Virus record (IMG/VR): IMGVR_UViG_3300020037_001477
From: an uncultured virus (IMG/VR IMGVR_UViG_3300020037_001477)
Lineage: Duplodnaviria; Heunggongvirae; Uroviricota; Caudoviricetes
DNA: 20,000 nt
Reading direction: 5' to 3' (one strand)
Under the pieces are notes generated by a model. The model did no database searches. It was not told the DNA's origin and saw only the letters and a list, made by a program, of their open reading frames with translations. The position numbers and the translations under genes were made by a program. Shown here piece after piece: positions 2,797 through 19,879 of the stretch. The first letter of the stretch is position 1, and each line of letters starts with the position of its first letter.

Positions 2797-2800
2797 GTGT

Positions 2801-5002
2801 CTAGTCCTTTGCATCGGCCCAATTGTCTCCGATCCCGCCAGAGACAAGGCCATTGGTAGGCATCTGCGGGAAGATGGTGGTCGCGGCCCAGATCAGGGTC
2901 TCCTTCATGACCTCGAACGCTTCGGCCGCGTCGTGCTCCGCCACGTCGGCGATCAACTCGTCATGCACCGTGTGAACGAGATGCGCGTCGAGCCGATAGT
3001 CGGGCTCGACCTGCCACACCTTGGGGAACCGGCTGAGCGCGAGCAGCATGATCTCCGCCGCGCCGCCCTGCGAGGGCGTGTTGATCGCCTTGGTGAAGGT
3101 ACCACCGCGAGGCTTGTAGACGTTGCCGCACGGCGTCCACAGGAAGCCGCTGACCTCGGCCTGCGCCTCCTGGAGGTTCTTCCACGCCTTGAAGTCCACG
3201 AACAGATCGAGGATCGCGTGCTGGATCGCAGTGGCTTCGTCGACCGTGATGACGATCTTGCTCTTCCGCAGCAACAGCGTGAGACCCTTGGGCTGCTGGC
3301 CGAACAGCAGACCGAACAATGCGTTCTTCGCCGCCTGTCGCATCCACTTTCCCGCGCCCTTTTTGAAGAACGCGACGACGTCAAGACGCGCAGCGAAGTT
3401 CAGCAGATCGGTCAGGTCGATCTGGCCGAAGGTGGTGCGGACCAGCGGGTGGGATTGGAAGCAGGCGCACGCCGTCATGACGTGAATGTCGAGGCCGCGC
3501 TGCACAGCTTCGAGCAGGAAGCGGTCCTTCGAGAGACAGGCCGGGACACGTAGCTCGATCTGCCCAAGGTCAAGCACGACGAACTTGCGGCCCTTCCTGG
3601 CTTTGAAGAGCTTCCTGAAGTTTCTCTTCAACTCGTCGTCTTCGTCAGGGCGCTTGATCGTCTGGAGCGCCGGCTCCGTCACAGAGAAGCGGAACGTCTC
3701 CGTGCCGCCGATCCTGAAGTTCGCGTGGATGTTCTGCGTGAACGGATTGATGTGGCGTCGCAGGTTCCAGCCGAGCGTCTCGAACTCTTTCTTTACCTCG
3801 GCCCATTCGATCAGGCACTCCAGCGGGTATTGAAGCTCCTGGACGATCATGTGCTTGTACTGCTCAAGCGTGTCTTGCCCGGTCGACATCGCGCCCGTGT
3901 CGGTGACGGGCCAGTCGCCGACCGTGCGCGCTCCGGTGTTGAGCAGCACCCACTGCACCCACGCTGAGACCTGCGCGTAGCTTCCGGGGTTCTGCACCTT
4001 CGGCGCGCCCGGCGGGCTGTGCGCCTTGAACGCTTCAAGCGTGCGGTCGTGCAGCGCATCATACTCGCGCTCCATTTCCTCGCACATCTTCCAATGCAAC
4101 TCGGCGTCGAAGCCGATGCCGTGCGTCACCACTTCGTTCACCGCTGGCATCGCGCCGCGCAGCAGGTTGTAGACACGGCGGCAATTCTCCTGCGGCAGAC
4201 GCTTGATCTCGCTGATGAAGCGGTCCTGTGCCCAGAAGAGTTCGTAGGTCGCGACCACGTCGGTCGAGGCGTAGCTGATCTGCTCGACCGTCAGCGTCGG
4301 TGCGCCCCAATCACTGACCTGAAGCTGCTTCGAGAGTTTCTTCCCGAGATGCTGGTCGCAGAGGTATGCCAGCGTGCGCGTCATGCCGGACAGCGACGTG
4401 ATCGCCACGTTCTGGAGCATCGTGCAGTGCGGCGTCTTGGCCGGCGCGAAGCCGTACTGGCTCAGCATCTTCATGTCGAACGATAGATAGTGGCCGACCC
4501 AGGCCACGCCCGGCGAGTTCAGAAACTCGTAGAGCGGTTCGAGAGCTTCGCGAGACAGCACATGCAGATCGGCGACGAGCACCGTGTCTCCGCCCCAATA
4601 GACCTGGATCAGGCGGACGTTGCCGGTGCCGACGTTGAGACCGCCTTCACGCACGTTCTTCGAGCACTGCTCGCTCCACGCCTCGGCGTCGAGCAGCGCT
4701 TGGCGCATGTTGATCCAGAGGTCGGAGTTCTGATCCTTCGACTTCACCGCCTCGAAGTTGGCGCGTGCCTGCCTCTCGAACTCCTGCGCCTCGGCGAACT
4801 CTTTCTTCACCGCCTCGACGCAGTAGGTCTCGACGTCGACACAGATCAGCAGCGGGTTGTTGGGATCGAGGTTCTGGGGGATCGCGTTGGCGAGCGCGTC
4901 GCGGGTGGTCGGGACCAGGACAGTCTTGTTCCAGAGGAAGTTGAAAAACCCCCCTGGCAAATGAGCTTCCGGTTGGGCTGCGGCGGTCACGGCTGCGGTC
5001 AT
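2801..5002 (-). CDS. polA: Phage family A DNA polymerase with 3'-5' exonuclease domain (no 5'-3' exonuclease domain)
   Basis: ExoI DVET, ExoII HYLSFD, ExoIII YASTD; motif A DLGQIELR, motif B RQAAKNALFGLLFG, NTPSQG, motif C VHDEL. ATG at 5002 follows AAAGGGAA (alternative GTG start at 5032). Confidence 0.95.
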   Translation of the reverse strand: MTAAVTAAAQPEAHLPGGFFNFLWNKTVLVPTTRDALANAIPQNLDPNNPLLICVDVETYCVEAVKKEFAEAQEFERQARANFEAVKSKDQNSDLWINMRQALLDAEAWSEQCSKNVREGGLNVGTGNVRLIQVYWGGDTVLVADLHVLSREALEPLYEFLNSPGVAWVGHYLSFDMKMLSQYGFAPAKTPHCTMLQNVAITSLSGMTRTLAYLCDQHLGKKLSKQLQVSDWGAPTLTVEQISYASTDVVATYELFWAQDRFISEIKRLPQENCRRVYNLLRGAMPAVNEVVTHGIGFDAELHWKMCEEMEREYDALHDRTLEAFKAHSPPGAPKVQNPGSYAQVSAWVQWVLLNTGARTVGDWPVTDTGAMSTGQDTLEQYKHMIVQELQYPLECLIEWAEVKKEFETLGWNLRRHINPFTQNIHANFRIGGTETFRFSVTEPALQTIKRPDEDDELKRNFRKLFKARKGRKFVVLDLGQIELRVPACLSKDRFLLEAVQRGLDIHVMTACACFQSHPLVRTTFGQIDLTDLLNFAARLDVVAFFKKGAGKWMRQAAKNALFGLLFGQQPKGLTLLLRKSKIVITVDEATAIQHAILDLFVDFKAWKNLQEAQAEVSGFLWTPCGNVYKPRGGTFTKAINTPSQGGAAEIMLLALSRFPKVWQVEPDYRLDAHLVHTVHDELIADVAEHDAAEAFEVMKETLIWAATTIFPQMPTNGLVSGGIGDNWADAKD

Positions 5003-5029
5003 GGTGTTTCCCTTTTGTCTCTCGGTCGT

Positions 5030-5067
5030 CACCCCCTCCCCCGGTCTACGCTCCAGGGGAGGGGGTG
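5030..5067. promoter_or_regulatory. GC-rich inverted repeat (hairpin) upstream of polA
   Basis: CACCCCCTCCCC (5030-5041) pairs perfectly with GGGGAGGGGGTG (5056-5067). On the minus-strand RNA it extends by one G-U and two more pairs. No U-tract follows. Confidence 0.65.
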
Positions 5068-5080
5068 CGCTCGACTGCCG

Positions 5081-5110
5081 GCGTCTAGGTGCCTGAACTC
5101 ACCTAGACGC
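5081..5110. promoter_or_regulatory. 11-bp perfect inverted repeat overlapping the stop codon of the SSB-like gene
   Basis: GCGTCTAGGTG (5081-5091), 8-nt loop, CACCTAGACGC (5100-5110). Confidence 0.65.
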
Positions 5111-6470
5111 TGCCGTCCCCGAGCGCCGCGTCGACCGCCGCGCCGGCCACGGCGGGGGCATCCGGCGCGGTGCCGGCGGGGGCGGCGGCAGGAGGCCGTC
5201 GCGGATGGCCACGGCGCGCGACCGGGGGAGCCCCGGCGGGAGCCGCCTGGGCGGGCGCAGGAGCGGCCTGGACCGGCGGGGGTGCCGCAGGTACCGGTGC
5301 CGGCGCAGGCGCAGCCACGGGCGCAGGGGCGGGCGCGGCCGGGGCCTGCTGGCCGTAGTCCACCACGGCGGTCGGGGCCGGGCCGGCGGGCACCGACTGG
5401 ACCGGCGGCGGGGCCTGGACCGGCGGCGCACCGGCTGCGACAAAACGACGCACCGGGGGAGCCATCGGCTGGGCCACCGCAGGGGCCGGCTGGGCACCGC
5501 CGAACTGCCGCGCCGGCTGCGGGGCCTGGACCTGCGGCGCGGCGACCGGGGCCGGCTGCTGGGGCGGGATCGTGCTAGGCCCCTCCCACGACGGCGGCGC
5601 GGCCTGCGGCTGGGGAGCCGCGTAGACCGGTGCCGGCGCGGCGACCGGGGCCGGCGCACCGCCGAACTGGCGCGGCGGCTGCGGCGCGGGTGCCGCGTAG
5701 ACCTGCGCCGTGGGAGCCGGCGGGGCGTAGGCCGGTGCCGGCGCGGCCGGCGGGGCGTAGGGCTGGCGCTGCACCTGCGGAGCCGGCGTCGGCTGATGGT
5801 TGATCGCCGCGCGCATGGTCGGCGGCAGCGAGACGCCGTAGCCTTCCATGAGCGCAATCGCCGAAAGCTCGTCCATCCACTGCGTGACGTCGAACACCGG
5901 GTAGGGCGTCGGGCCGTACTGCTTGTGGACGTAGGTGTCGGTGGTCGCGCGCACAATGATCTGCTCGCTCTCGGCGTGTCCCGTCTTGAGACCGGTCGAG
6001 TAGTCGCGCAGCAGCTTGGAGACAGCGTTCAACCCGCCCGTGCTCGACGAGATGAACATGCCGAAGATCGCCTCCTGCACCGGAGCCGAGGGGTCGGGCA
6101 GAATGAGCAACTCCAGCTTGACCGACTTCTGCCAGCCGTCGTTCTGCTTCGAGTACGGGCCGTGGTCAGGCAGCGACGTCTTCTCGGGGATGCGCTCGCC
6201 GGCCGAGTACCAGCGATCCTCGATGCACTGGCTGTTGCGCCAGCATTGCCAGCCGTACACCACGTTCTGGAGGTTCGGCATGAAGTAGAACTCGTTGTTG
6301 GGGAACTGCAAGCCCTCGCGGCCGAGCAGCCACCAACCCTTCTGAAACTTCACGTACTGCACGCCAGCGCTGCCAATGGCCGCAGCGGCGGCTTCAAGCT
6401 GCCGGACGTAGTCCGACTTCTGGTTCGGGTCGACAATCGCGGTACCCGGTCGATGTCCGATGTTCGTCAT
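5103..6470 (-). CDS. Putative phage single-stranded DNA-binding protein with a long Pro/Ala/Gln-rich tail
   Basis: N-terminal ~220 aa contain 'YVKFQKGWW', 'GWQCW', 'DGWQ', 'SSSTGGLNAV' and 'YVHKQYG..P.PVF.V..W', a pattern I associate with phage SSB-like proteins. Sits between nuclease and polA. The C-terminal half is low complexity. Confidence 0.65.
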   Translation of the reverse strand: MTNIGHRPGTAIVDPNQKSDYVRQLEAAAAAIGSAGVQYVKFQKGWWLLGREGLQFPNNEFYFMPNLQNVVYGWQCWRNSQCIEDRWYSAGERIPEKTSLPDHGPYSKQNDGWQKSVKLELLILPDPSAPVQEAIFGMFISSSTGGLNAVSKLLRDYSTGLKTGHAESEQIIVRATTDTYVHKQYGPTPYPVFDVTQWMDELSAIALMEGYGVSLPPTMRAAINHQPTPAPQVQRQPYAPPAAPAPAYAPPAPTAQVYAAPAPQPPRQFGGAPAPVAAPAPVYAAPQPQAAPPSWEGPSTIPPQQPAPVAAPQVQAPQPARQFGGAQPAPAVAQPMAPPVRRFVAAGAPPVQAPPPVQSVPAGPAPTAVVDYGQQAPAAPAPAPVAAPAPAPVPAAPPPVQAAPAPAQAAPAGAPPVARRGHPRRPPAAAPAGTAPDAPAVAGAAVDAALGDGSV

Positions 6471-9663: not shown

Positions 9664-9700
9664 GGTCTAGTTCCTGTTTACCTGTTTGATCGCGGGCAGG

Positions 9701-9729
9701 ACTTTATTCCCCCTGTCGATCTCGGTCAA
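9701..9729 (-). promoter_or_regulatory. Sigma70-type promoter for the leftward replication operon
   Basis: Minus strand TTGACC (9729-9724), 17-nt spacer, TAAAGT (9706-9701), ending 38 nt upstream of the helicase ATG. Confidence 0.7.
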
Positions 9730-9730
9730 G

Positions 9731-9760
9731 AAAAAACCCCCGGCTTTGTGGGCCGGGGGT
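9731..9760 (-). terminator. Intrinsic terminator (minus strand)
   Basis: ACCCCCGGC-CCACAAA-GCCGGGGGT followed by TTTTTCTT: a 9-bp GC-rich stem plus U-tract. Confidence 0.8.
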
Positions 9761-9789
9761 GAGTGGGAGGAAACCCTCCTGAACTAGAC
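9731..9789 (-). ncRNA. Candidate ~59-nt small RNA (or attenuated leader)
   Basis: Bounded by a near-consensus promoter (9824-9796) and an intrinsic terminator (9760-9731). No AUG-initiated ORF inside. Internal GGAGG/CCUCC hairpin. Confidence 0.55.
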
Positions 9790-9795
9790 GCTGGC

Positions 9796-9824
9796 ATTGT
9801 ATTCCAGGCTGTTGCTTTCAGCAA
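9796..9824 (-). promoter_or_regulatory. Sigma70-type promoter driving the candidate sRNA
   Basis: Minus strand TTGCTG (9824-9819), 17-nt spacer, TACAAT (9801-9796). Predicted +1 is G at 9789, preceded by C. Confidence 0.65.
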
Positions 9825-9838: not shown

Positions 9839-9891
9839 GGCCGGCTCATAGATCGCCCTATGATGGGGTGGTCGCGCCATGCGGGGAAACC

Positions 9892-12636
9892 ATGACGTTC
9901 CAACTAGACCAGAAGGCGGTCGTCGCCTTTCTGCGCACGATCACACCGCCGAACAAGGCGGGCTCTCTCGCCATCATCTCGCGCCCGACCGACGCCAACC
10001 TGAAGATCGCAGAGGATGCGCTAGCTGCGGGGGAGAAACGCGGCGGGTTCATCTACAAAGAGACCACGCGGCAGTTTGCCGGCAACGATCCGAACGGTCT
10101 CACCAATCTGATCACGCTGCTCAACGAGCGCAACGGCATCGCGCACATCTCAGCGCGCATGGGCCGCATCAAGATCGGATCGCCGACAGCGAAGCTCGAC
10201 AATATCGAGCAGGTCGGTGCGCTCTGGATCGACATCGACGCCAAGAAAATGGCACCGACGTTCTACCCCGATCCTGACACAGCGGTGCAGTGCGCGGTCG
10301 ACGCGCTGCTGGAGTTCGAGTTGCCGCCAACGATGATCGTCTTCACTGGTGGCGGCGTGCATGCCTATTGGAAGCTGAGCCAGGGTGCAGGCCCGGCGGC
10401 GCTATCCGTGATCGAGACGTGCAACCGCGCGCTGGTGAACCTGTTCACCGCTGACGACACGCCTGCGATCATGAAGGCGAACGCGGCGATGCGTATCCCT
10501 GGCACGATCAACTGCAAGTACGGGATCGTGACGGAGATCGTGCATCACGACGAGACCGCGATCTACGATCTAGGCGACACGGCGAACTTCCTAGCTCAGC
10601 CGCGTGACGCGCTCGCCTTCGGCCCTGGTCTCATGACGCTGAAGGACACGCTTGATCGGTTGTCCGGCAAGCAACTCACGCCGGCCGCGCTATACCAGCG
10701 CGCGGCTGCGCAGGTCGGGGCGCGCGGCGGCAAGACCGATGAAGAGTGGGAAGAGATCATCGGTCGCATCGCTCTGCCTGGGCACCGCAACAGCGCATGG
10801 GCAACGGTGTGCGGCAAGCTGGCGCAGGAAGGCTTGTCTCCTGACCAGATGGTTGGCTGGTACGCGCAGGAGTACGAGCAGCAGGCGAAGGCCTACCCCG
10901 GCACGCGCGAGCCGCTGCCTCCGATGGAAGTAGTCGCGACAGCGGATAGCGTGTGGAAGAGCCACCAGTCTTCGCGGCGGGAGACCGACGCTCGCCACCC
11001 TACACAGGCCCCCGCGTCCGCATCGGATGCAGGGGCGGAAGAACCGGAGCCGGAAGCAGAGACAATAGCGCTGGACCCTGTGTCGACATCCAATCCGTTT
11101 GGCAGCGCGTCCGTCTCAACGCGAGCGCGCGTCGAGGACATCGAGAAGAACGTCAAGAAGGCGCAGCGAAAGCAGCACATCCTGCGGGCGTTCGTTGATG
11201 GCGTCGTGTCGTTCTTCGATCCTGGCCGCAACGGCAGGCTGATCGAGAGCGAAGAACTCTTCTGGGTTTGCGATCTGACATCCAACGTCTGGTCGTCGAA
11301 GACCCACGACGCCATGGCGCGCGTCATCAACGACTTCATCACCTACGGCGTTGGTGCCGTCGCCAGCGCGGCGGTGGTCAACGAGGTCAGGTTGATGCTG
11401 AAGAACAAGACGCACCAGACCGTGGTGCCGTGGAACAGTGGCGCGGGCAAGCATGCGGTGGTGTTCTCGAACAACATCGTGATCGACCTGAACACGATGA
11501 ACGAGTTGACGCTGACCCCCGATATGTACGTGCAGGATCGTCACAAGATGGCGTGGCCGTGGGAGCCCGGCGCGCAGTGCCCGTTGTGGAATAAGGCGCT
11601 CGCCGACACCTTCGCGCACATCCCTGCTGCTGATCAGCCCGGCGTGCTCGACACGATTGAAGAGTGGATGGGGACGATCCTGATTGGCAGGCACAAGCCG
11701 CGCGAGATTGCCAAGGCCATGGTGTTCTTCGGTCCTGAGTTGACCGGCAAGTCCACGGTGATCGACGTGTGTCGGCGAATGTTGGGAGACAGCAAAAGCT
11801 CGTCGCTCAAGCCCAGCGATCTAGGCGGCGACCATAGTCTCAGCGAGCTAGCTCAATCCATCGCTTGGCTGGTCGACGAAATCCCCTCCGCCGGCAAGCT
11901 CGAAGACAACATCTTCAAGCAACTCGTCACCAACGAACCGGTGCAGATCAACCCGAAGTACGTCGCCGCCTACACGAAGCGCCTGGACTTGACCATCGGG
12001 TTCGCCGGCAACAACCTCCCGATCATCACCGACCCGACGATGGCCACGCTGAGCCGCATCATCTGGGTGCCGTGCCTAACGCAGTTCTTCCCGAACAACC
12101 CAAACACGAACCCAACCCTGATCGACGATCTGGAGAAGGAAGCCGCTGGCATCGTGCAGCAGGTGGCCTGGGCAGCGAACCGCGTGCTGCTGCGCGGCCG
12201 GTTCGATCTGCCGCCTGTGTTGATGCAGGAACAGGAGAAGATCAAGGTTGTCTCCAACCCGATGCACGACTACCTGAAGCAGGCGATCAGGCCGAACCCG
12301 AAGGTCTCGATCAAGGTGCGCGATCTCCTGGCTGGCTACCTTGGGTACCGCGCCATGATCCGGGGCACTGTCTCTAAGAAGCTGATCCACGAGCGAGACA
12401 CGACGACCGATGTCCTCGGGCGTGTGCTGAGCACCATGGTCCCGTCAGCGATCTCCAGCCAGAGCGGGGGGCAAGGCGTGTGGATCGGGGTGGAGTGGAG
12501 CGACAACGGTCTCGGGTGGGTGCTGCATGGGGACGGGATGTTCGATCACCCGACCTATGGAAGCTCTCCGCAAGCTGCGAAGAGCGCCAACATGGCAGCA
12601 CCCCCCGGCACCGTCCTGCCTTTCGCGAGGCCTTAG
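9892..12636 (+). CDS. Primase-helicase fusion: RepB-type AEP primase, PriCT-like domain, D5/P4-type SF3 helicase
   Basis: AEP motifs 'WIDID', 'TGGGVHAYW' and 'MRIPGTIN'; 'GHRNSAW...GKL' is PriCT-like; SF3 motifs 'GPELTGKS', 'LVDE' and 'AGNN'. ATG at 9892 follows GGGGAA, so the ORF-track start at 9763 is rejected. Confidence 0.9.
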   Translation: MTFQLDQKAVVAFLRTITPPNKAGSLAIISRPTDANLKIAEDALAAGEKRGGFIYKETTRQFAGNDPNGLTNLITLLNERNGIAHISARMGRIKIGSPTAKLDNIEQVGALWIDIDAKKMAPTFYPDPDTAVQCAVDALLEFELPPTMIVFTGGGVHAYWKLSQGAGPAALSVIETCNRALVNLFTADDTPAIMKANAAMRIPGTINCKYGIVTEIVHHDETAIYDLGDTANFLAQPRDALAFGPGLMTLKDTLDRLSGKQLTPAALYQRAAAQVGARGGKTDEEWEEIIGRIALPGHRNSAWATVCGKLAQEGLSPDQMVGWYAQEYEQQAKAYPGTREPLPPMEVVATADSVWKSHQSSRRETDARHPTQAPASASDAGAEEPEPEAETIALDPVSTSNPFGSASVSTRARVEDIEKNVKKAQRKQHILRAFVDGVVSFFDPGRNGRLIESEELFWVCDLTSNVWSSKTHDAMARVINDFITYGVGAVASAAVVNEVRLMLKNKTHQTVVPWNSGAGKHAVVFSNNIVIDLNTMNELTLTPDMYVQDRHKMAWPWEPGAQCPLWNKALADTFAHIPAADQPGVLDTIEEWMGTILIGRHKPREIAKAMVFFGPELTGKSTVIDVCRRMLGDSKSSSLKPSDLGGDHSLSELAQSIAWLVDEIPSAGKLEDNIFKQLVTNEPVQINPKYVAAYTKRLDLTIGFAGNNLPIITDPTMATLSRIIWVPCLTQFFPNNPNTNPTLIDDLEKEAAGIVQQVAWAANRVLLRGRFDLPPVLMQEQEKIKVVSNPMHDYLKQAIRPNPKVSIKVRDLLAGYLGYRAMIRGTVSKKLIHERDTTTDVLGRVLSTMVPSAISSQSGGQGVWIGVEWSDNGLGWVLHGDGMFDHPTYGSSPQAAKSANMAAPPGTVLPFARP

Positions 12637-12902
12637 ATCATCAGGCTCTTCGGCGGGGTGTAGTCGTCAGCGCCCCGCCGCTTGGCCATGAAGGATCGCG
12701 GGAGTTTCTTCCCGTAGACCTTCTCCAGATAGGCAGTCATGACCAGCGCGCTAAACACGCCGACCGGCATGTTCGCACGCTTGGCCTGGGCCGTGAGATG
12801 CGCCGCCGTCTTCAACGGCATCCGCATCATGATCGGGCGTGCAGCCCCGGCCACCAAGTTCTGCACGCCATCCTTCGTGTTGTTTCGCTTCAGCTTCGGC
12901 AC
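12633..12902 (-). CDS. Ribbon-helix-helix (Arc/CopG-like) DNA-binding protein
   Basis: AAGGAG SD with GTG start. 'PIMMRMPLKTAAHLTAQAKRANMPVGVFSALVMTAYL' fits the strand-helix-helix pattern. Confidence 0.6.
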   Translation of the reverse strand: MPKLKRNNTKDGVQNLVAGAARPIMMRMPLKTAAHLTAQAKRANMPVGVFSALVMTAYLEKVYGKKLPRSFMAKRRGADDYTPPKSLMI

Positions 12903-12905
12903 GGT

Positions 12906-13649: not shown

Positions 13650-14310
13650 GTGTTATCTCCATGAGTTCGGGAGGGATGTTGAGGTTGTCTCTGTCGAGAC
13701 CGAAGTCCTCGATCAAGAGACCTGTCTCCAGGACGTGGGCTCGCCATGCCTTGGTGGCGCTCTTTCCTTTCAGCGTTGTTGGATCGACGAAGAGCCTGCG
13801 TGGGTCTTTGCCGTTCCGCTTGCAGTAACGCTTGATGCTCTTCACCAAGCGCATGGTGTCGACGACCTGGGTTGTCTCACCATCCACGTTGACGGTGGTG
13901 TAGAGCCCCAGAAGCTCGGCGATGCGGTACCATGACAGCGCGTGCTCGACGCGCAGAACGATGGCCAGTCGACAGCGCGCCTCATACAGATCACGCCGGG
14001 CGTTGGATTTGATCTCCTGCTCTTCTGCCGGCGTGCTCAGCAGATCGAGGCGTCCAGCGTTGCGCACGATCTGGTAGACGCGCTGGCGCGAGATGCCGTG
14101 GCGCAGGCCGACATCAGCGAGAACGCTCGACTTCGAGTTCCCGTTGGCGACAGCGATCTGCTGTGCTGCTTCGACGTCGAGGATGATCTGCTTGTTGCGC
14201 TCGGGCTTGGCGTACATGGCGACGCCACGCTGGCCGCGCACCTTCTTAGTGAGCAGTGTCTCGATGCGCTCAGCTAGGCGCTCAGCGTCGGTTCTGGAGA
14301 GTTTGCGCAC
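13636..14310 (-). CDS. Putative transcriptional regulator with two HTH motifs (one sigma70 region 4-like)
   Basis: 'LADVGLRHGISRQRVYQIV' and 'LSWYRIAELLGL'. GTG at 14310 has GGAG upstream, but the start is uncertain. Confidence 0.65.
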   Translation of the reverse strand: MRKLSRTDAERLAERIETLLTKKVRGQRGVAMYAKPERNKQIILDVEAAQQIAVANGNSKSSVLADVGLRHGISRQRVYQIVRNAGRLDLLSTPAEEQEIKSNARRDLYEARCRLAIVLRVEHALSWYRIAELLGLYTTVNVDGETTQVVDTMRLVKSIKRYCKRNGKDPRRLFVDPTTLKGKSATKAWRAHVLETGLLIEDFGLDRDNLNIPPELMEITHGLS

Positions 14311-14593
14311 TGAGAAACTCCGCCCATAGCTCGTGCAGATGGGCAATCTTGAACATATCGGTGAGACGGCTGTTGATCCTGGCCTCGCGTAAATCCTTGG
14401 CCACGACCACGGGTGTCTCGCCGTGGGCCTGTTCCTTGGAGACGAGGATGAACTCGCCGTCTATCGGTGTGGTGTCGTCCGTGTAGGCGGCGAGGCCCTC
14501 ACATATCCTGGTCGCGAGGTCTTCGTTGTTGAGACGGATGTCGCCTCGATGCTCGTCCAGGAGCAACTCCAGTCGCTTTGTGCTGATCCGCAT
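14282..14593 (-). CDS. Hypothetical protein (103 aa)
   Basis: GGAG SD; ATG lies 3 nt after the upstream stop. Confidence 0.65.
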   Translation of the reverse strand: MRISTKRLELLLDEHRGDIRLNNEDLATRICEGLAAYTDDTTPIDGEFILVSKEQAHGETPVVVAKDLREARINSRLTDMFKIAHLHELWAEFLSAQTLQNRR

Positions 14594-14596
14594 GGC

Positions 14597-15118
14597 TCAA
14601 GCTCTCCCTTGATCTTGTGAGTACGCATGCGCCGGCCGTTCAACCTCCATCGCTTGCGTCTTGTCGAACTCCCTGAACCTGTGCATCAGGATCGCGGTGG
14701 GCGTATCCACATGCGCAAGCCAGTGGTTGGGATCGACGGCGCTGCCTGGGCGCTTGCTGGCGCTCACCTTGGCCTCTTCGATCTTGCCGTCCAGAACGAC
14801 ACGCGCAGCGACCGCTATCAGTCCTAGCTCGGCGATGAAGTTGGAAAGCTGAAGAGCCTTGCGCGGCACCGTGTTCGGGTCCATCGACACATCCTCGGCG
14901 TTGGCCGTGCGGTAAATCTCGATGTAGGTCATCTTCGCCAGCATGAACTTGTGTGTCTCGGCGATGATCAACTGCACGAGCGCCTTACACAGGCCAGCGG
15001 TAGGACCGTCTTCGAGTTTCTCGTAGTCGATTCCAGCATAATCCATCGCGCGTTTGCAGATCGTCAGCATCTCGGTGGCCTGGAGCATCGGGTCAGGCAT
15101 CTTGATCGTGTCGTCCAT
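14597..15118 (-). CDS. Hypothetical protein (173 aa)
   Basis: ATG at 15118 overlaps the upstream TGA (TGATG), with GGGGG upstream. Confidence 0.7.
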   Translation of the reverse strand: MDDTIKMPDPMLQATEMLTICKRAMDYAGIDYEKLEDGPTAGLCKALVQLIIAETHKFMLAKMTYIEIYRTANAEDVSMDPNTVPRKALQLSNFIAELGLIAVAARVVLDGKIEEAKVSASKRPGSAVDPNHWLAHVDTPTAILMHRFREFDKTQAMEVERPAHAYSQDQGRA

Positions 15119-15288
15119 CAGAACCCCCAGCGGTGCATGTAGGTAAGCATGAGCCACGAGAACATGGCGACAAGATGCGCGAACCAGACGCGACGCCATA
15201 ACAGGGTGTCTTCGTCCCACGCCTTCTGCGTCTCATGCATGCGCAGCCACACGGCTTCGCGCATGGCCTGAAGCTGGTCTGGGTTCAT
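15118..15288 (-). CDS. Small Trp-rich probable membrane protein (56 aa; not in the ORF track)
   Basis: MNPDQLQAMREAVWLRMHETQKAWDEDTLLWRRVWFAHLVAMFSWLMLTYMHRWGF*. ATGA overlap at the start and TGATG overlap at the end. Confidence 0.65.
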   Translation of the reverse strand: MNPDQLQAMREAVWLRMHETQKAWDEDTLLWRRVWFAHLVAMFSWLMLTYMHRWGF

Positions 15289-15413
15289 CGCACGACGATC
15301 TTGATCGCCTGCACCATCAGGTCTGGAACCGACAGGCAGAGCAGCACGATGGCCACGAAGATCAAACCGGGGATCAGATCACCGGCAACGTGCAAGACAG
15401 CGCGCTTACTCAT
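15285..15413 (-). CDS. Small membrane protein (42 aa; not in the ORF track)
   Basis: MSKRAVLHVAGDLIPGLIFVAIVLLCLSVPDLMVQAIKIVVR*. ATGA overlaps at both ends and GAGG upstream. Confidence 0.65.
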   Translation of the reverse strand: MSKRAVLHVAGDLIPGLIFVAIVLLCLSVPDLMVQAIKIVVR

Positions 15414-15811
15414 TTGATGGTCCTCGGCTTAGGTTTCGGGGAAGGGATCATAACAGGGTTCAGCACGCGTGCCAACCGTTCGTAGGCCTGAAGAAACTCC
15501 TGGAGGAATTTCCCAGACACAGCGCCAACCCTCGGCCCAACGCTGCTTGGATAGGAGGCGTTCGGGTTGATCCGCATCGGGTCGTCCTGCCCAGAGACAG
15601 CAGCCGTTATGGTCTTGGCGTGCTCACCGATCTCAGCAACCAGTGCGTAGGCACGCTTGAGTTTCTCCAGGATACCGTCGCTCTCGTATTGGCGGATGTG
15701 CTGGCTCTGGTCTATGGCATCTCGCAGAGAAATGGTGATCGTGTCGGTGCCGTCGACCCCGCGATCCACTCCCACTTCAACGACATCTTGCTCTGACTTC
15801 TCGACCGACAT
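15410..15811 (-). CDS. Hypothetical protein (133 aa)
   Basis: GAGG SD and ATG at 15811, just after the upstream stop. Confidence 0.65.
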   Translation of the reverse strand: MSVEKSEQDVVEVGVDRGVDGTDTITISLRDAIDQSQHIRQYESDGILEKLKRAYALVAEIGEHAKTITAAVSGQDDPMRINPNASYPSSVGPRVGAVSGKFLQEFLQAYERLARVLNPVMIPSPKPKPRTIK

Positions 15812-15819
15812 GGCAAACC

Positions 15820-16599
15820 TCAGTGATTGATGAAGGCGATTGCCCTGCCCCAGGAGGCATCCGCCCAACACAAGCCGCAGGTCGAGCACGCGGAGGTCTT
15901 GTCGATCTGCGCCGGGCAGACGATGACGTCCTTGTGCAACGCCGTCTTGTCTCCTGAGCTAGAGACAGGGATGGCCTCGCCTTCGTAGGTGATCGGGTTG
16001 GGCACCGATCTCCTGACCTTCCAACGCTCGGGGTACGCCTTACCGATCTGCATGACAGCTTGCCCGATCTCGCTCTGTGGCTGGCGCGCAGTGTACCCGA
16101 AGACCCGCAGGCCGCGCATCGCCTTCATGGCCGTGTCCCACAGGCGCACGTATCCAAGCGAGTAGAAGTCCCCCAGAATATGGAGCCTCACAACGAAGCC
16201 TCGGGGGTACTCGCTCTGAAGTTTCTCCAGATTGCGCCAGAGCGCGATCTCGAACAGCGTCGAGGGTTGGTACCGCTTCGACCAGTTCATGTTGTTGCCG
16301 TAGCACGAGAGCCAGTGCATGCACGAAGACGGGCATGTCTTGCGCTCTTCGAGGGTGAGCGCGAAGATTGGCATGCCTGTCCACGCGCCACGAGAGACAA
16401 CGGCCCCTAGCTTGCGCTGATAGCCTCCGGGCTTGAGCACCCGCTCGTCCATCTGAGCGAACACCCTGGTGTGCGGGAAGAGCGTGCGGCTCTCCGTCAC
16501 AGCTTGGTGGTCCTTGGTGAGCACGACGCCCCGCCGCTTGCGCGTGCTCACCGTGATGTTGGAGAAGCGCCGCCCCTCCATGCTGGGCTTGTGAACCAT
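15820..16599 (-). CDS. Gp88-like Cys-rich, radical-SAM-like protein
   Basis: 'TCPSSCMHWLSCY' (Cx3Cx5C), 'RLHILGDF', 'FGYT' and C-terminal 'CPAQ..CSTCGLC', as I recall for the phage Gp88 family. Start at 16599 (coupled) or GTG at 16674. Confidence 0.7.
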   Translation of the reverse strand: MVHKPSMEGRRFSNITVSTRKRRGVVLTKDHQAVTESRTLFPHTRVFAQMDERVLKPGGYQRKLGAVVSRGAWTGMPIFALTLEERKTCPSSCMHWLSCYGNNMNWSKRYQPSTLFEIALWRNLEKLQSEYPRGFVVRLHILGDFYSLGYVRLWDTAMKAMRGLRVFGYTARQPQSEIGQAVMQIGKAYPERWKVRRSVPNPITYEGEAIPVSSSGDKTALHKDVIVCPAQIDKTSACSTCGLCWADASWGRAIAFINH

Positions 16600-16664
16600 C
16601 AGCGTGCCCGCCAGATCGAGCTTCCGGCGGCGATCTCGAAGGTCTCGTCGTGTGTGTAGCTCAC
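16599..16664 (-). CDS. Possible 21-aa coupling mini-ORF
   Basis: GTG overlaps the upstream TGA (GTGA). Its own TGA overlaps the ATG at 16599 (TGATG). GAGG upstream. Confidence 0.4.
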   Translation of the reverse strand: MSYTHDETFEIAAGSSIWRAR

Positions 16665-16942
16665 GGCTCGGCACCCTCTTCCTCGGGCTGCGCCTCGGCC
16701 GGCATGCTCAGGTCGCCGAAGTGTTCCTTGTTCAGGATCGCAACGGCTTCCAGCAGCGCGGCGAGCGCCTGCCTCGACGAGACCTTGATCTCGCTCGGAC
16801 CCTCGGCCTCGAAGCTGAAGCCGTCGCGCTTGGCTTCGCCCTTCAGGGCCTTCAGGTTTTTCTTTGCGTCGCCCTGCTTGGCGTCGAAGTACCAAGCCGG
16901 CGGCTCGCCAGCCCTGGTGAAGATGGTACGCCAGACGATCAT
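16661..16942 (-). CDS. Hypothetical protein (93 aa)
   Basis: GGAG SD, ATG 3 nt after the upstream stop, good codon bias. Confidence 0.7.
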   Translation of the reverse strand: MIVWRTIFTRAGEPPAWYFDAKQGDAKKNLKALKGEAKRDGFSFEAEGPSEIKVSSRQALAALLEAVAILNKEHFGDLSMPAEAQPEEEGAEP

Positions 16943-16945
16943 GAG

Positions 16946-17239
16946 TTACTCCGCTCCTGGTTTGGCCGGGATGCGATATGCCCCCGGCGCGTGGATCATC
17001 TCTCGCTCGGACTGTGGATCGCCCCAGCCCTGTCCATAGTTGGTGCCTGGGCCGCGCTTGTCGACGGCCTTGTCAGCAAGCTGCACCATCTTGCGGTGCT
17101 CGCGCGCACGAAGACGTCGCTGTGCCGGGGACAACCTAGCCAGTTGTTTGTGGTGGGGCGATCCGGGGATTGGACACGAGCCGTTGCACTGAGACCAATC
17201 GTCCCCAGAGACAGCCCCGCACTTAGGACACGCTGTCAT
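16946..17239 (-). CDS. Small Cys-rich (putative Zn-binding) protein
   Basis: GGGAG SD and ATG at 17239. MTACPKC...QCNGSCP...HH. Confidence 0.65.
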   Translation of the reverse strand: MTACPKCGAVSGDDWSQCNGSCPIPGSPHHKQLARLSPAQRRLRAREHRKMVQLADKAVDKRGPGTNYGQGWGDPQSEREMIHAPGAYRIPAKPGAE

Positions 17240-17648
17240 CGGTCGGCTCCCGCTGTTGGCGCTCGTTGCGGATGTAGTAGGCGATCTCCATCTCGGCGGT
17301 CGCCTCGCACGCGAACACGATCTCGGGCTGCTCGGCGCGCCGCCCCAGGAGCATGATCTCCTGCGAGTTGCCGTTGCGGTCAGGCCCCATCGGGTATTCG
17401 CCGTCGCTTTCGTTCCAATCCTTGATGATCTTTTTTGCGGCACCCCAGAAGGTTCCGTCGTAGGTCTCGTGGATTGCGGCTTCGTCCCAGACGCCGGCCT
17501 TGGCGCACTCACCCACGAGGAACTCCCACTTCGGAAGGCACTTGTGCGTGCGCTTCCTGTCTCCGCCGATCAGCGCAGCAGAGACACCCTCGTTGAATGA
17601 CAGGCCGTCATTCATGAGGTACTCGCCGCAGGTAGGACACGGCCTCAT
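17223..17648 (-). CDS. Hypothetical protein with N-terminal CxxC...HxC
   Basis: GGAG SD with ATG, acidic C-terminal domain. Confidence 0.7.
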   Translation of the reverse strand: MRPCPTCGEYLMNDGLSFNEGVSAALIGGDRKRTHKCLPKWEFLVGECAKAGVWDEAAIHETYDGTFWGAAKKIIKDWNESDGEYPMGPDRNGNSQEIMLLGRRAEQPEIVFACEATAEMEIAYYIRNERQQREPTDDSVS

Positions 17649-17654
17649 GACTGG

Positions 17655-18224
17655 CTACTCCGGGATTTCAGTGGGCGGGGTCTCGGCGAGATGCTTCTCG
17701 ATGTCCTCGCGAGACGGGTAGACCTGCTCCAGCAGAGACACGGCGTCCTTGGTCATGACGAAGAGCGCGTCTCGTGCTGCGACCTGGGTCTCGATCAGCG
17801 ACGAGCTTGAACTCAGCACCGCCTGCGCCGCAGCCGCAAGCCGGCGCAGCTTGCCGCGCATCTCGAACGCGCGCTGGAACAGGACGGCGTTGGCGAAGTC
17901 CTGGGTATCGTCGCTGAGCCCGGTGGTGTACCCGATCTCTTGGCCGGCGATGTCGCTGATCTGCCGGCACCCGATGGCGTCGAGGCTGGCCGACCACGGG
18001 CCGGGCGACGTGACAGAGACGTCCTCGTCGCCGCCCATGCCCGCCATCTTGGCGTCGCGAGCCAAGCGCCCAAGGTTGTCGGCGTGCGCTCGCATCATCT
18101 TCTCGAAGAGCACGCGGTCGGGAGTGAGCGCACCCCGCAGGTGGTTGCTCGCTGCCCGATCAGGTGTGAAGCTCAGCTTCAGTCCGTTGTCCTGAAGCAT
18201 CGCCTGGAATTGTGCGAACTGCAT
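17655..18224 (-). CDS. Hypothetical phage protein with a 'TPGPW...ANA.L'-type domain
   Basis: AGGAG SD. 'TSPGPW' and 'ANAVLFQRAFEM' resemble a common uncharacterised phage early-gene family. Confidence 0.7.
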   Translation of the reverse strand: MQFAQFQAMLQDNGLKLSFTPDRAASNHLRGALTPDRVLFEKMMRAHADNLGRLARDAKMAGMGGDEDVSVTSPGPWSASLDAIGCRQISDIAGQEIGYTTGLSDDTQDFANAVLFQRAFEMRGKLRRLAAAAQAVLSSSSSLIETQVAARDALFVMTKDAVSLLEQVYPSREDIEKHLAETPPTEIPE

Positions 18225-18414
18225 TGTCTAGCTCCTGTTGGATGTTGGCGTGGATCATCTCTTTGATGACCTTGGCGATGGCGCATCGCCGGGCGCTGGC
18301 TGTTCGGACAAGCCAGTCGTGCTGGGTCTTCGTGAACTCGATGCTGTACTGCACCGAGTTTCTCTCGGACGCCTTGAAGTAGGTGCCCTTCGGGGCGGTG
18401 CTGTGGTTGGCCAC
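18160..18414 (-). CDS. Ribbon-helix-helix DNA-binding protein
   Basis: 'VQYSIEFTKTQHDWLVRTASARRCAIAKVIKEMI' fits the RHH pattern. GTG lies 2 nt after the upstream stop. Confidence 0.6.
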   Translation of the reverse strand: MANHSTAPKGTYFKASERNSVQYSIEFTKTQHDWLVRTASARRCAIAKVIKEMIHANIQQELDNAVRTIPGDASGQRTEAELHT

Positions 18415-18416
18415 GG

Positions 18417-18695
18417 CTAGAGCTTCTGGATGAAGGCGTGCAGCACGAACGTGCCCTGGTGCAGCAGGAAGCTGCCAATGTGATCGGCCTCGTCAGGGCT
18501 GGGGCATGGCGCTCCGGTCACAATGAACGCGACCGTCCGCTTCTGGACGGGGGCGTCCGCCAGACACCGATACCAGAAGGCCAGCTTGCCGTGCTGATAC
18601 TCGGCGTGGAGCAACTCGAAGTCCTGGTGGAACTCGATCTCCTGCACGCCCATCGGCAGTGCGGCGGTCTTGTAGACAACATAGGTATTGGCCAT
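18417..18695 (-). CDS. Conserved phage hypothetical protein (92 aa; DUF7352-like by recollection)
   Basis: GGAG SD. Pattern VYK...Q....FW......TG.....IGS......VLH.F. Confidence 0.7.
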   Translation of the reverse strand: MANTYVVYKTAALPMGVQEIEFHQDFELLHAEYQHGKLAFWYRCLADAPVQKRTVAFIVTGAPCPSPDEADHIGSFLLHQGTFVLHAFIQKL

Positions 18696-18720
18696 CGGTG
18701 TCTCCGGTCCAAGAGAGGGG

Positions 18721-18771
18721 GTCTCCTAATGCCCTAAGCCCGGCGCTAGTGCCGGGCCAGGGGTTGGAGAC
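18721..18771. promoter_or_regulatory. Long interrupted intergenic hairpin
   Basis: Nested arms GTCTCC/GGAGAC, CCCT/AGGG and GCCCGGC/GCCGGGC. Confidence 0.55.
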
Positions 18772-18785
18772 GCGCGTCCTGCGCG

Positions 18786-19436
18786 CTAGGTCACGACCGT
18801 CTTGGTCATGCGCCGACCGCCACGAGGAACCGGGACGGGGGCCGGCTGGTCAGCAACACGCTCGGCGACGTCGCGCTGGATCGCACTGATCGCCTCGGCC
18901 GGGAGCAGCACCAACTGGCTCTGCACCTTGCGCTCGACGATCCTGTCTCGCAGCGCCTCGGCCTCGGGCCACACGGCGACGAGTTCCTCGTAGGTCGCCG
19001 CCGCCCCGATCACGTCGGAGTAGGCCTTGAGCAGGGCTTTCTTCGCGGTCTTGTAGACCTGCCGCGCGTCGTCCCATGCGTCGAACGCCTCGCGATCTCC
19101 GGGCTCGTCGAAGAGGATCGGCCGATAGTAGGCGTTCGTCGGAGCCGTGAACTCGTCGCCGTTCTTGGTGACGAAGCGCCTCTCCCCGCCGACGTCCAGG
19201 CGCAGCACCGGCTGCGCGAGTTTCCCGGTCATGGCGTAGCGCTCAAGCACGAGCATGTCGTGCATGGGGTAGCGCGCAAGCACCGCCTTGAGGACGCGCG
19301 AGTAGAGGTTGGAGTAAGCCACCTTCAGCACGTCCTTCTGCGGGCCGGCGAGGCGGAGGCTGAGCGCGTGAGCCTTCAGGATGACGCGCATGTTCTTGGT
19401 GAGGCGGGTCGGCTTGGGGGATTTGATCTGGGTCAT
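18786..19436 (-). CDS. Nmad5-like (nucleotide-modification-associated domain 5) protein
   Basis: N-terminal 'RLTKNMR..I' and C-terminal 'TYEELVAVWPEA' match my recollection of Nmad5. ATG at 19436 with a GGGGGA SD. Confidence 0.6.
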   Translation of the reverse strand: MTQIKSPKPTRLTKNMRVILKAHALSLRLAGPQKDVLKVAYSNLYSRVLKAVLARYPMHDMLVLERYAMTGKLAQPVLRLDVGGERRFVTKNGDEFTAPTNAYYRPILFDEPGDREAFDAWDDARQVYKTAKKALLKAYSDVIGAAATYEELVAVWPEAEALRDRIVERKVQSQLVLLPAEAISAIQRDVAERVADQPAPVPVPRGGRRMTKTVVT

Positions 19437-19437
19437 G

Positions 19438-19863
19438 TCAGCGGTCCCCCTGCTGATCGTTGGAGACAGGATCACGGTCGACGTGGATCACGCCACGGTC
19501 GGGGATCGAGACCATGAAGCCGATGTCGCCTTCCTCGTGGCGCTTCTCGGCTTCGTGCCGCTCGGCCTGCTCGTCGGCGTACTTGTTGACGTCGGCGCGC
19601 TTCACGTCACGCCCGTTGAAGGGCGACGGCTCGTCGGCCGGCTTGTCGACCGGGCCGTCATAGAGGATGCGCGACACGCCCTTGCCGTGCCAGGGGATCA
19701 GCGCAACCTGCGCGTAGTCACGGCCATCGCTGGCGTTGTGGTAGAGGGTCGTCTTGACCGCACCGTTCCACGACGCAGCGATGACCTCCATGCCTGAGTT
19801 CTTGGTGCCAAGCCTGGACGCTGGGCCGCGTGCGCCGTTCAGTTTCCCGATGAAGTGAGCCAT
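19438..19863 (-). CDS. Hypothetical phage early protein (141 aa)
   Basis: GAGGA SD. Globular-looking N-domain MAHF.G...GARG.ASRLGTKNSG...AASW.G. Confidence 0.75.
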   Translation of the reverse strand: MAHFIGKLNGARGPASRLGTKNSGMEVIAASWNGAVKTTLYHNASDGRDYAQVALIPWHGKGVSRILYDGPVDKPADEPSPFNGRDVKRADVNKYADEQAERHEAEKRHEEGDIGFMVSIPDRGVIHVDRDPVSNDQQGDR

Positions 19864-19879
19864 GGTCTAGTCCTCTTTC

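What the first reader, a model, noticed from the sequence alone, without database searches (positions are those of the whole stretch)
2799..19873. Recurrent (G)RRCTAGAC motif at five translation starts, complementary to the 5' end of the candidate sRNA
Seen, in mRNA sense: helicase AGGAACTAGACCATG (site 9673-9665, perfect 9-bp complement of GUCUAGUUC); gene 19863 AGGACTAGACCATG (19873-19865); gene 2796 AGGACTAGACACATG (2807-2799); gene 18224 AGGAGCTAGACAATG (18234-18226); primase codons 4-6 CAACTAGACC (9902-9909, 8 bp, using a CTA codon). The three AGGA(G)CTAGAC variants differ from the perfect site only by A>G changes that keep pairing as G-U wobbles, which favours RNA-RNA recognition. The eight GTCTAG/CTAGAC hexamers I found by eye all lie at gene boundaries. 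Inference: a phage sRNA regulon that shuts down translation of early and replication genes. Alternative: a DNA operator (TGGTCTAGT at the helicase, primase and 19863 starts) for one of the RHH/HTH proteins.
Basis: partly seen in the sequence, partly recalled or inferred. Interest (0 to 1): 0.8.

Follow-up and report, generated by a model that had tools for sequence, protein, structure and literature searches.

The report
Phage start-codon motif matching a small RNA
An uncultured wastewater phage carries the same short sequence just before the start codons of five of its genes, and a tiny RNA gene between its helicase and primase genes begins with the exact complement, so the RNA probably controls translation of those genes.

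Summary
Two overlapping contigs of the same phage extend the sequence to 44 kb and add two copies, one of them a fifth ribosome-site copy identical over 15 nt to the helicase site. CTAGAC is the most start-enriched of 474 hexamers (5 of 10 copies within -20..-1 of 40 starts, p 3.6e-9). Only 1 of the 5 TAGs is a real upstream stop.

The candidate sRNA (9789 to about 9728, minus strand) has a promoter-like site, a 10-nt single-stranded 5' end, a hairpin and a strong terminator.

The only diverged relative I could fetch (helicase 69% identical) keeps the sRNA. Its seed reads AUCUAG instead of GUCUAG and its helicase site CUAGAU instead of CUAGAC: one compensatory change.

Best reading (about 0.55): a trans-acting phage sRNA pairs with a start-associated motif and represses translation. 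Repression, expression and Hfq dependence are untested. A protein that recognises the motif is the main rival.

The primase site is weaker: 8 bp, and absent in the relative.

The parts
9728..9789 (-). Candidate sRNA of about 59-62 nt. It has a single-stranded 5' seed GUCUAGUUCA, stem-loop 1 (GGAGG/CCUCC) and a terminator hairpin with a U6 tail.
   Evidence: Fold at -27.9 kcal/mol, z -3.8. Terminator scan. A homologue with the same architecture lies in L003 2700-2766. Only sub-threshold Rfam matches.
9796..9824 (-). Promoter-like site of the sRNA: TTGCTG (9824-9819), 17-nt spacer, TACAAT (9801-9796). Six nt further on is G at 9789.
   Evidence: Read from the sequence. It is the only TTGCTK-N16-18-TAnnnT in 44 kb. 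L003 has TTGCTT-N17-TAGGGT at the same place. It falls below the threshold of the consensus scan. No transcription start site has been measured.
9736..9760 (-). Intrinsic terminator of the sRNA: 9-pair stem with 8 G-C pairs, followed by TTTTTT at 9735-9730.
   Evidence: (top-ranked terminator-like site). Conserved in L003.
9701..9729 (-). Helicase promoter-like site TTGACC-N17-TAAAGT, directly after the sRNA terminator. It implies a 5' UTR of about 30 nt that contains the motif.
   Evidence: TTGAC and TAAAGTCC are conserved in L003.
9665..9673 (-). Start-associated site of the SNF2 helicase: GAACUAGAC, a perfect 9-bp complement of the seed, with ATG at 9663.
   Evidence: The dimer minimum-energy fold contains the duplex in all four sequence windows tried.
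2799..2807 (-). Start-associated site of g6 (134 aa, ATG 2796): GGACUAGAC. Its TAG is the stop codon of PolA.
   Evidence: Cofold ddG -13.9, rank 1 of 40.
18226..18234 (-). Start-associated site of g22 (189 aa, ATG 18224): GAGCUAGAC. It lies inside the 3' end of an 84-aa ORF (18414-18160), where it is read CTA GAC.
   Evidence: ddG -12.4, rank 3.
19865..19873 (-). Start-associated site of g25 (141 aa, ATG 19863): GGACUAGAC. It sits at the end of a leader of about 350 nt.
   Evidence: ddG -11.0, rank 4.
9902..9909 (+). Primase codons 4-6 (AACUAGAC), an 8-bp complement at +11..+18. Doubtful target.
   Evidence: Absent from the L003 primase. ddG -6.9.
5083..5112 (-). Hairpin whose two arms carry GUCUAG and CUAGAC (11-bp stem, 8-nt loop). 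It begins at the stop of gene 5103-6470. A second 12-bp hairpin follows at 5030-5066, upstream of PolA. Role unknown.
   Evidence: Sequence and CTAGAC hits. No U tract follows either hairpin.

Best explanation
The phage encodes a trans-acting small RNA of about 60 nt, transcribed leftward from about 9789 and ended by the terminator at 9760-9730. Its first nine bases, which are predicted to be unpaired, pair with GRRCUAGAC. That motif occupies the space between the Shine-Dalgarno core and the AUG of five phage mRNAs: helicase, g6, g22, g25 and a CobT/VWA-like gene just beyond the window. The duplex covers -10 to -2, so it should block 30S binding and lower translation of these genes as the sRNA accumulates.

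Shown here: the motif and its register, the complementarity, the conserved sRNA architecture, and one compensatory change.

Inferred: that the RNA is expressed, where its 5' end lies, the direction of the effect (repression), any need for Hfq, and any role in timing.
For: (1) Motif. 5 of 10 CTAGAC copies in 44 kb lie at -7/-8 of an ATG. CTAGAC is the top hexamer of 474, p 3.6e-9, and 0 of 20,000 shuffles reach 5. Two of the sites are identical over 15 nt.

(2) Only 1 of 5 motif TAGs is a real upstream stop.

(3) The seed complement is found as GUCUAGUUC in a transcript only at the sRNA. It lies 7 nt after a -10-like TACAAT and ahead of the strongest terminator in the window.

(4) Both the window and L003 homologues fold with a free 10-nt 5' end, a stem-loop and a terminator. 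The stem-loop sequence differs but the hairpin is kept.

(5) The intergenic region is 81% identical between lineages whose helicases are 69% identical. Seed bases 2-11 are invariant.

(6) Covariation. The window has sRNA GUCUAG with helicase CUAGAC. L003 has AUCUAG with CUAGAU. Cognate duplexes score -13.7 and -15.5 kcal/mol, against -11.3 and -11.2 for the crossed pairs.

(7) At the sRNA locus the three bases next to the hexamer complement the purines of the ribosome site, although no gene starts there. They are conserved in L003.

(8) 8 of 10 copies are in mRNA sense. The two antisense copies are the sRNA seed and the hairpin arm that pairs with a sense copy.
Against: No expression data exist. 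The one RNA-library run that was laid is contigs only and cannot show RNA ends.

The promoter is weak by consensus: 8 of 12 in the window, less in L003, and not listed by the scan.

Covariation rests on one relative and one terminal base pair. It would equally fit a DNA motif present in two orientations.

Energies do not separate targets cleanly. In full-length cofolds the SAS genes rank 1, 3, 4 and 6 of 40. The helicase reaches only -4.5 kcal/mol (-2.3 to -7.9 depending on the window), and a non-motif gene (g23, start 18695) ranks 2.

A 9-bp seed is short.

Three mRNA-sense copies (one hairpin arm, the primase site, and the 758-aa gene in the left extension) lack the full 9-bp match, so pairing with the sRNA does not explain them.

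The host is unknown, so Hfq cannot be checked.
Confidence: 0.55

Rival explanations
1. The motif is read by a protein. One version is a DNA-binding repressor with asymmetric, dispersed sites that block transcription, as the stoperators of Cluster A mycobacteriophages do. The other is an RNA-binding translational repressor in the manner of T4 RegA. (Both comparisons are recalled knowledge.) The copy at the sRNA start would then be one more site, for example one that represses that promoter.
For: The bare hexamer also occurs where the 9-bp pairing does not: in both arms of the 5083-5112 hairpin, and at +13..+18 of two plus-strand genes. TGGTCTAGT is shared by four sites. GGACTAGACC is nearly palindromic. 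The phage encodes small proteins of unknown function and one with weak HTH matches. The L003 change of both sites would also follow from a change in a protein's specificity.
Against: The sites keep a fixed register with the AUG rather than with promoters. The helicase site is at about +22 of its promoter, and the g25 site is about 350 nt from its promoter. The sites with an extra base break the palindrome. TGGTCTAGT is absent at the sRNA, g22 and g6 sites. The conserved complementary flank at the sRNA locus has no explanation under this model. No candidate protein was identified.
Confidence: 0.25
2. The motif is a cis-acting start context with no trans factor: a shared ribosome-binding cassette, a remnant of stop-start coupling (SD-TAG-NCC-ATG), or a linker for module exchange. 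The match to the sRNA 5' end would then be fortuitous or a by-product of copying.
For: TAG lies within -12..-1 of 13 of 41 starts, and 13 of 41 genes end in TAG. Near-variants exist at ordinary coupled junctions, such as GGAGTAGACCGTG at 12902 and AGGAATAGGCCATG at 7606. A pyrimidine-rich 'CC' just before the ATG is common in this phage.
Against: 4 of 5 motif TAGs end no gene. A 15-nt identity between two unrelated genes and the top hexamer rank go beyond a loose context. This reading does not explain the conserved complementary 5' end of a terminator-bounded unit or the paired change in L003.
Confidence: 0.12
3. The 60-nt unit is not a free sRNA but a leader or attenuator of the helicase operon. 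Read-through transcripts would carry both the 5' GUCUAGUUC and the helicase site 110 nt downstream, and would fold back on themselves to mask the helicase start in cis.
For: The unit lies directly upstream of the helicase on the same strand. The two complementary sites are 119 nt apart in the window and 122 nt in L003.
Against: A strong terminator and a separate, conserved helicase promoter lie between them. This reading says nothing about the four other sites elsewhere in the genome.
Confidence: 0.06

Closest known systems
Start-associated sequences (SAS) of Cluster K mycobacteriophages (Pope et al. 2011, PMC3203893, passages read; Front Microbiol 2025, PMC12699233, passages read)
   Same: A short asymmetric repeat in the ribosome-binding position, a few nt before predicted starts. 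It is almost always in one orientation, confined to the non-structural arm, and prefers ATG. Sometimes it contains the upstream stop. Those authors left open whether the partner is an RNA or a protein, and the 2025 paper still calls the function unverified.
   Different: Different sequence: 0 matches to the 13-bp Cluster K consensus at 2 or fewer mismatches in 44 kb. Fewer copies: 5 against 11-19. An unrelated phage, and probably a Gram-negative host, which I infer only from the GH24-type endolysin. Here a complementary small RNA gene is present. No extended inverted repeats (ESAS) were seen.
5'-seed, terminator-ended trans-acting sRNAs of Gram-negative bacteria (RybB and OmrA/B type; recalled knowledge)
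   Same: A short RNA with its own promoter, a conserved unpaired 5' end used as the seed, a Rho-independent terminator with a U tail, and several targets paired at or near the ribosome-binding site.
   Different: Both the sRNA and its targets are phage genes. The targets share one near-identical site. Hfq binding and any regulation are untested.
Phage RNAs that pair with phage ribosome-binding sites: P1/P7 c4, P22 sar; and the trans-acting phage sRNAs VpdS (VP882) and PreS (lambda) (review PMC12197685, passages read)
   Same: A phage-encoded small RNA that pairs with complementary sequences around a ribosome-binding site to block translation. VpdS acts on both phage and host mRNAs.
   Different: c4 and sar act on one operon (ant) and belong to immunity circuits. 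PreS targets a host gene. Here five dispersed phage genes carry the same site. No Rfam family reaches its threshold.
Stoperators of Cluster A mycobacteriophages (mentioned in PMC3203893; details recalled)
   Same: Many copies of a short asymmetric site, in one orientation relative to transcription, in short intergenic gaps across the genome.
   Different: Stoperators are bound by the phage repressor on DNA and are not locked to the start codon. No repressor or lysogeny module was seen in the 44 kb examined.

Membership tests
Rfam RF00519 (mmgR/suhB) | Covariance-model score at or above the gathering score of 41 bits | tested here: not met
   23.5 bits at 9721-9788 on the minus strand, over the full model length. 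The shared GUUUCCUCCC stretch is not kept in L003.
Rfam RF02278 (Betaproteobacteria toxic sRNA) | Score at or above the gathering score of 50 bits | tested here: not met
   24.2 bits, mostly from the terminator.
P1/P7 c4 antisense RNA (Rfam holds a family for it; that it does is recalled) | Any covariance-model match | tested here: not met
   No such match at E up to 1 in the window, up to 10 in 9650-9900, or up to 0.1 in L002, L204 and L003.
Cluster K SAS | 13-bp consensus GGGATAGGAGCCC with at most 2 deviations (PMC3203893) | tested here: not met
   0 matches at 0, 1 or 2 mismatches in 44,040 bp, both strands.
Cluster K SAS | Position a few nt upstream of start codons, overlapping the ribosome-binding site, in one orientation | tested here: met
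   5 sites end 1-2 nt before an ATG, all in sense orientation behind AGGA or GGAG.
Cluster K SAS | Restricted to the non-structural arm, with ATG preferred | tested here: met
   5 of 5 lie on the minus-strand replication/early arm. 5 of 5 use ATG, against 31 of 41 starts overall. The numbers are small.
5'-seed trans-acting sRNA | Independent transcription unit: own promoter and Rho-independent terminator | tested here: inconclusive
   The terminator is clear. The promoter is only consensus-like and is conserved in place in L003. No RNA ends are available.
5'-seed trans-acting sRNA | Conserved, unpaired seed complementary to several mRNAs at the start region | tested here: met
   unpaired 5' end; bases 2-11 invariant; 5 start regions.
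5'-seed trans-acting sRNA | Regulation of targets and chaperone dependence | not testable with these tools
   Uncultured phage with an unknown host.
Stoperator-type repressor sites | Binding by a phage repressor on DNA | not testable with these tools
   No repressor identified. Only weak HTH matches in ORF 13636-14346, below the Pfam cut-offs.

The most novel reading that the evidence does not exclude
Start-associated sequences, whose function in mycobacteriophages has stayed open since 2011, can be docking sites for a phage-encoded trans-acting sRNA. One 9-nt seed and one shared site between the Shine-Dalgarno core and the AUG would define a phage-wide translational regulon that co-evolves with its RNA. 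This would be an RNA counterpart of protein translational repressors such as T4 RegA.
Probability: 0.45. Interest if true: 0.8.

Novelty: new variant of a known kind. Interest (0 to 1): 0.66.

Why it matters
Phage sRNAs are known mostly as single-target antisense RNAs or as regulators of host genes. Start-associated motifs are known only as unexplained repeats. Here the two meet in one genome. A motif at five gene starts has its complement at the 5' end of a conserved small RNA, with a first hint of co-evolution. If confirmed, this gives a concrete and testable mechanism for SAS-type motifs. It would also show that a phage can group dispersed genes, inside and at the head of operons, into one post-transcriptional unit. 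The phage turns up in wastewater, sludge, freshwater, soil and seawater metagenomes: 20 runs from 12 studies hold part of it, so natural variants are available for covariation tests.

Tried and rejected
TAG stops beside ribosome sites as the whole explanation. TAG near starts is common (13 of 41), but only the g6 site uses the motif TAG as a real stop. The ORF above g25 is a leader with a 7-nt tandem repeat.

My own idea that motif sites have unusually long Shine-Dalgarno spacing. Withdrawn. Aligned spacing is 6-9 nt, against a median of 7 elsewhere.

CCUCC in stem-loop 1 as a second, anti-Shine-Dalgarno seed. Not conserved in L003.

Rfam membership. None. No tRNAs in the extensions.

Search for relatives:
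- INPHARED phages, by DNA: no match.
- Helicase tblastn: best hit 28% identity, Thermus phage MN1.
- IMG/VR, 8 scans: only two contigs of the same phage. One search returned only lysozymes at 49% identity or less.
- Species genomes, 2 scans: nothing related (checked by blast).
- Metagenome contigs, 1 scan: L003 only.
- The 15-mer AGGAACTAGACCATG occurs in 116 IMG/VR stretches. By my own rough estimate that is about the chance number. Two of the stretches are from this phage. I checked the others only by blast and base composition.
- Protein hits show that closer and intermediate relatives exist: endolysin at 94, 79, 77, 72, 72 and 66% identity, and a helicase at 68% on a 29-kb contig. Their DNA could not be fetched.

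Read laying: contigs only, so no RNA ends, strand or level. The contigs hint at diverged relatives, but their letters at the motif sites were not shown.

Other blanks: the search of earlier findings returned nothing. PDB sequence searches for g25, g22 and g6 returned nothing meaningful.

Operator TGGTCTAGT: present at 4 sites and absent at 3.


Full report
WHAT THE WINDOW IS

The window is 62% G+C and holds the replication module of a tailed phage.
- Plus strand, 61-1671: late/lysis genes, including a GH24 endolysin at 843-1376.
- Minus strand: dNMP kinase (2395-1604), g6, family A DNA polymerase (5002-2801), a nucleotidyltransferase-like protein with a long Ala/Pro-rich tail (6470-5103), a RecE/Cas4-like exonuclease (7606-6476) and an SNF2 helicase (9663-7840).
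- Plus strand: a primase (9892-12636).
- Minus strand, 12633-20000: about 15 small genes.

No sequenced phage is close. There is no DNA match, and the best helicase match is 28% identity to a Thermus phage.

Two IMG/VR contigs are the same phage: 99.8% and 100% identical in the overlaps. They extend the sequence 16.8 kb to the left and 7.3 kb to the right. I analysed a 44,040-bp composite. Parts of the phage are held by 20 public runs from 12 studies of wastewater, sludge, freshwater, soil and seawater.

THE OBSERVATION

The number is not unusual: 4.3 are expected, and 12 of 200 shuffles reach 8. The flanking strings and coordinates are right.

The extensions add two copies.
- L002 6503-6508 reads GAAGGAACTAGACCATG. 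It starts an 870-aa CobT/VWA-like gene that follows a CobS-like AAA+ gene. This is the same 15-mer as at the helicase, found without looking for it.
- The other copy lies at +13..+18 of a 758-aa plus-strand gene. The primase copy sits at the same offset.

Position carries the signal.
- Five of ten copies sit at -7/-8 of an ATG, behind AGGA or GGAG.
- Among the 474 hexamers seen in -20..-1 of 40 curated starts, CTAGAC ranks first: 5 of 10 copies, binomial p 3.6e-9. It ranks ahead of every Shine-Dalgarno hexamer.
- Shuffling each upstream window 20,000 times never gives five copies. The maximum was 4, reached once.

Caveat: I curated the start list, and for g6 I chose ATG 2796 among alternatives. 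The other four are the first ATG of their ORFs.

IS IT JUST TAG STOPS NEXT TO RIBOSOME SITES?

TAG near starts is common here: 13 of 41 starts have one within 12 nt, and 13 of 41 genes stop with TAG. Ordinary coupled junctions resemble the motif, for example GGAGTAGACCGTG at 12902. But only the g6 site uses the motif TAG as a real stop (that of PolA).
- Helicase site: it lies in a 5' UTR behind its own promoter.
- CobT-like site: it lies 20 nt after the true TAA stop, in another frame.
- g22 site: it is read CTA GAC inside an 84-aa ORF.
- g25 site: the ORF above it is a non-coding leader. A TTGACA-N18-TTTAAT promoter is followed by about 350 nt that end in 17.9 perfect copies of CAACCAG.

THE SMALL RNA

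On the minus strand, TTGCTG-N17-TACAAT is followed after six bases by G at 9789. Then come GUCUAGUUCA, a 5-bp stem-loop, and the best terminator in the window with a U6 tail. The fold is -27.9 kcal/mol (z -3.8) and leaves the first ten bases unpaired.

Directly downstream, TTGACC-N17-TAAAGT gives the helicase its own promoter. So the terminator closes a separate unit.

Rfam gives only sub-threshold matches: mmgR at 23.5 bits against 41, and a betaproteobacterial sRNA at 24.2 against 50. The unit is not a member of a described family.

The promoter is weak by consensus, and no RNA ends are available. The single RNA-library run that I could lay is kept as contigs and cannot show them.

COMPLEMENTARITY

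All five start-associated sites fit GRRCUAGAC. Each can form nine contiguous pairs with the seed, with at most one G-U.
- With G-U allowed freely, 16 sites in 44 kb fit, and five of them are these.
- None of 20,000 other genomic 9-mers reaches five start regions. The only ones reaching three or more overlap the motif's complement.
- Seed-only duplex energies are -13.3 to -15.0 kcal/mol for the five sites and -12.8 for the primase. Most other starts score -5 to -12.

Full-length cofolding is less clean. The motif genes rank 1, 3, 4 and 6 of 40. A non-motif gene (g23) ranks 2 through a different pairing. The helicase gains only -4.5 kcal/mol (-2.3 to -7.9 depending on the window), although the 9-bp duplex is in the minimum-energy dimer every time.

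THE RELATIVE

Only one diverged relative could be fetched: L003, a 7.2-kb metagenome contig whose helicase is 69% identical. Its helicase-primase intergenic region is 81% identical to the window, which is more conserved than the flanking protein. It keeps these features:
- the -35 element, and a TAnnnT at 17 nt;
- seed bases 2-11;
- a stem-loop of different sequence at the same place;
- the terminator;
- the helicase promoter;
- 16 nt of the helicase 5' UTR.

The one seed difference is G to A at position 1. The helicase site differs by C to U at the pairing position (CUAGAC becomes CUAGAU). Cognate duplexes score -13.7 kcal/mol (window) and -15.5 (L003, if its RNA starts one base earlier). The crossed pairs score -11.3 and -11.2.

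It is one event, at a terminal pair, in one lineage.

The primase site is absent in L003.

WEIGHING THE EXPLANATIONS

For RNA-RNA pairing:
- The motif has a fixed register with the AUG, not with promoters.
- 8 of 10 copies are in mRNA sense.
- At the sRNA locus there is a conserved flank complementary to ribosome-site purines, where no gene starts.
- The sRNA has the architecture of a 5'-seed sRNA.

For a protein partner:
- Bare hexamers occur where 9-bp pairing is impossible: the two arms of the 5083-5112 hairpin, and the two +13 sites.
- The 10-bp form of the site is nearly palindromic.
- Covariation of two DNA copies would also follow from a change in a protein's specificity.

My estimates: sRNA regulon 0.55, protein-read motif 0.25, cis-only context 0.12, cis leader 0.06.

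COMPARISON WITH WHAT IS KNOWN

The closest described phenomenon is the start-associated sequence of Cluster K mycobacteriophages. It is a 13-bp asymmetric repeat 3-7 bp before starts, in the non-structural arm, and prefers ATG. Its authors left open whether the partner is 'RNA or protein' (PMC3203893, passages). A 2025 survey of 188 genomes still calls the function unverified (PMC12699233, passages).

The present motif behaves alike but is not that sequence: 0 matches at 2 or fewer mismatches.

Known phage RNAs that pair at ribosome sites (c4, sar) act on one operon. VpdS and PreS are trans-acting phage sRNAs with host or mixed targets (review PMC12197685, passages). I found no paper that links a start-associated motif to a phage sRNA. 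That statement rests on three full-text searches and is not exhaustive.

VERDICT

The motif is real, and its link to the small RNA is probably real. The mechanism, translational repression by seed pairing, is plausible but untested. I rate it a new variant of known kinds and of good interest.

Noticed in passing
window 19880-20000, continuing to L002 763 (array at L002 639-763): A perfect tandem array of 17.9 copies of a 7-nt unit (CAACCAG on the transcribed minus strand). It forms the last 125 nt of a leader of about 350 nt between a strong promoter-like site (TTGACA-N18-TTTAAT, L002 about 1010-975) and the g25 start motif. It cannot be coding because of the 7-nt period. It may be a translation enhancer or standby site, or a binding array.
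   Followed up: partly
window 5030-5112: Two strong hairpins without U tracts between the stop of gene 5103-6470 and the PolA start. The first has GUCUAG and CUAGAC in its arms, and its 5' arm plus loop resemble the sRNA 5' end with a 4-nt insert. The second has a 12-bp C/G-rich stem. Their role is unexplained.
   Followed up: partly
window 9904-9909 and L204 11142-11147: Two plus-strand genes, the primase and a 758-aa gene with no Pfam match, both carry CTA GAC as codons 5-6, at +13..+18 of their ATG. This is a post-hoc observation. The start of the second gene is ambiguous (a second ATG lies 6 nt downstream).
   Followed up: partly
window 9640-9910 compared with L003 2575-2855: The whole helicase-primase intergenic region is 81% identical between lineages whose helicases are 69% identical. 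Conserved features include a probable extended -10 promoter for the primase (TGGTATCCT at 9830-9838) and 20 nt around the primase ribosome site.
   Followed up: partly
window 5103-5800 (minus strand): G+C reaches 78% because the C-terminal 240 residues or so of the nucleotidyltransferase-like protein form an Ala/Pro/Gln-rich low-complexity tail.
   Followed up: partly
window 18160-18414 (minus strand): An 84-aa ORF with no Pfam match overlaps the start of g22 by 65 nt. I could not confirm any fold.
   Followed up: partly
L002 3889-8032 (minus strand): A CobS-like AAA+ (AAA_5/CbbQ_C) gene and a CobT/VWA-like gene lie side by side in the early arm. The second one carries the start motif.
   Followed up: partly
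L204 3-8735 (plus strand): A single ORF of at least 2,900 codons runs off the left end of the contig, in the late arm. It was not analysed.
   Followed up: no
window about 8805-8825: The near-identical IMG/VR contig lacks 21 nt (7 codons, in frame) inside the helicase gene. It also differs at 5 single bases, none of them in the sRNA or the motif sites.
   Followed up: yes
window 15447-15475 (minus strand): The best sigma-70-like match in the window (TTGGCA-N17-TATGAT with TG) lies upstream of the small gene that starts at 15413.
   Followed up: no
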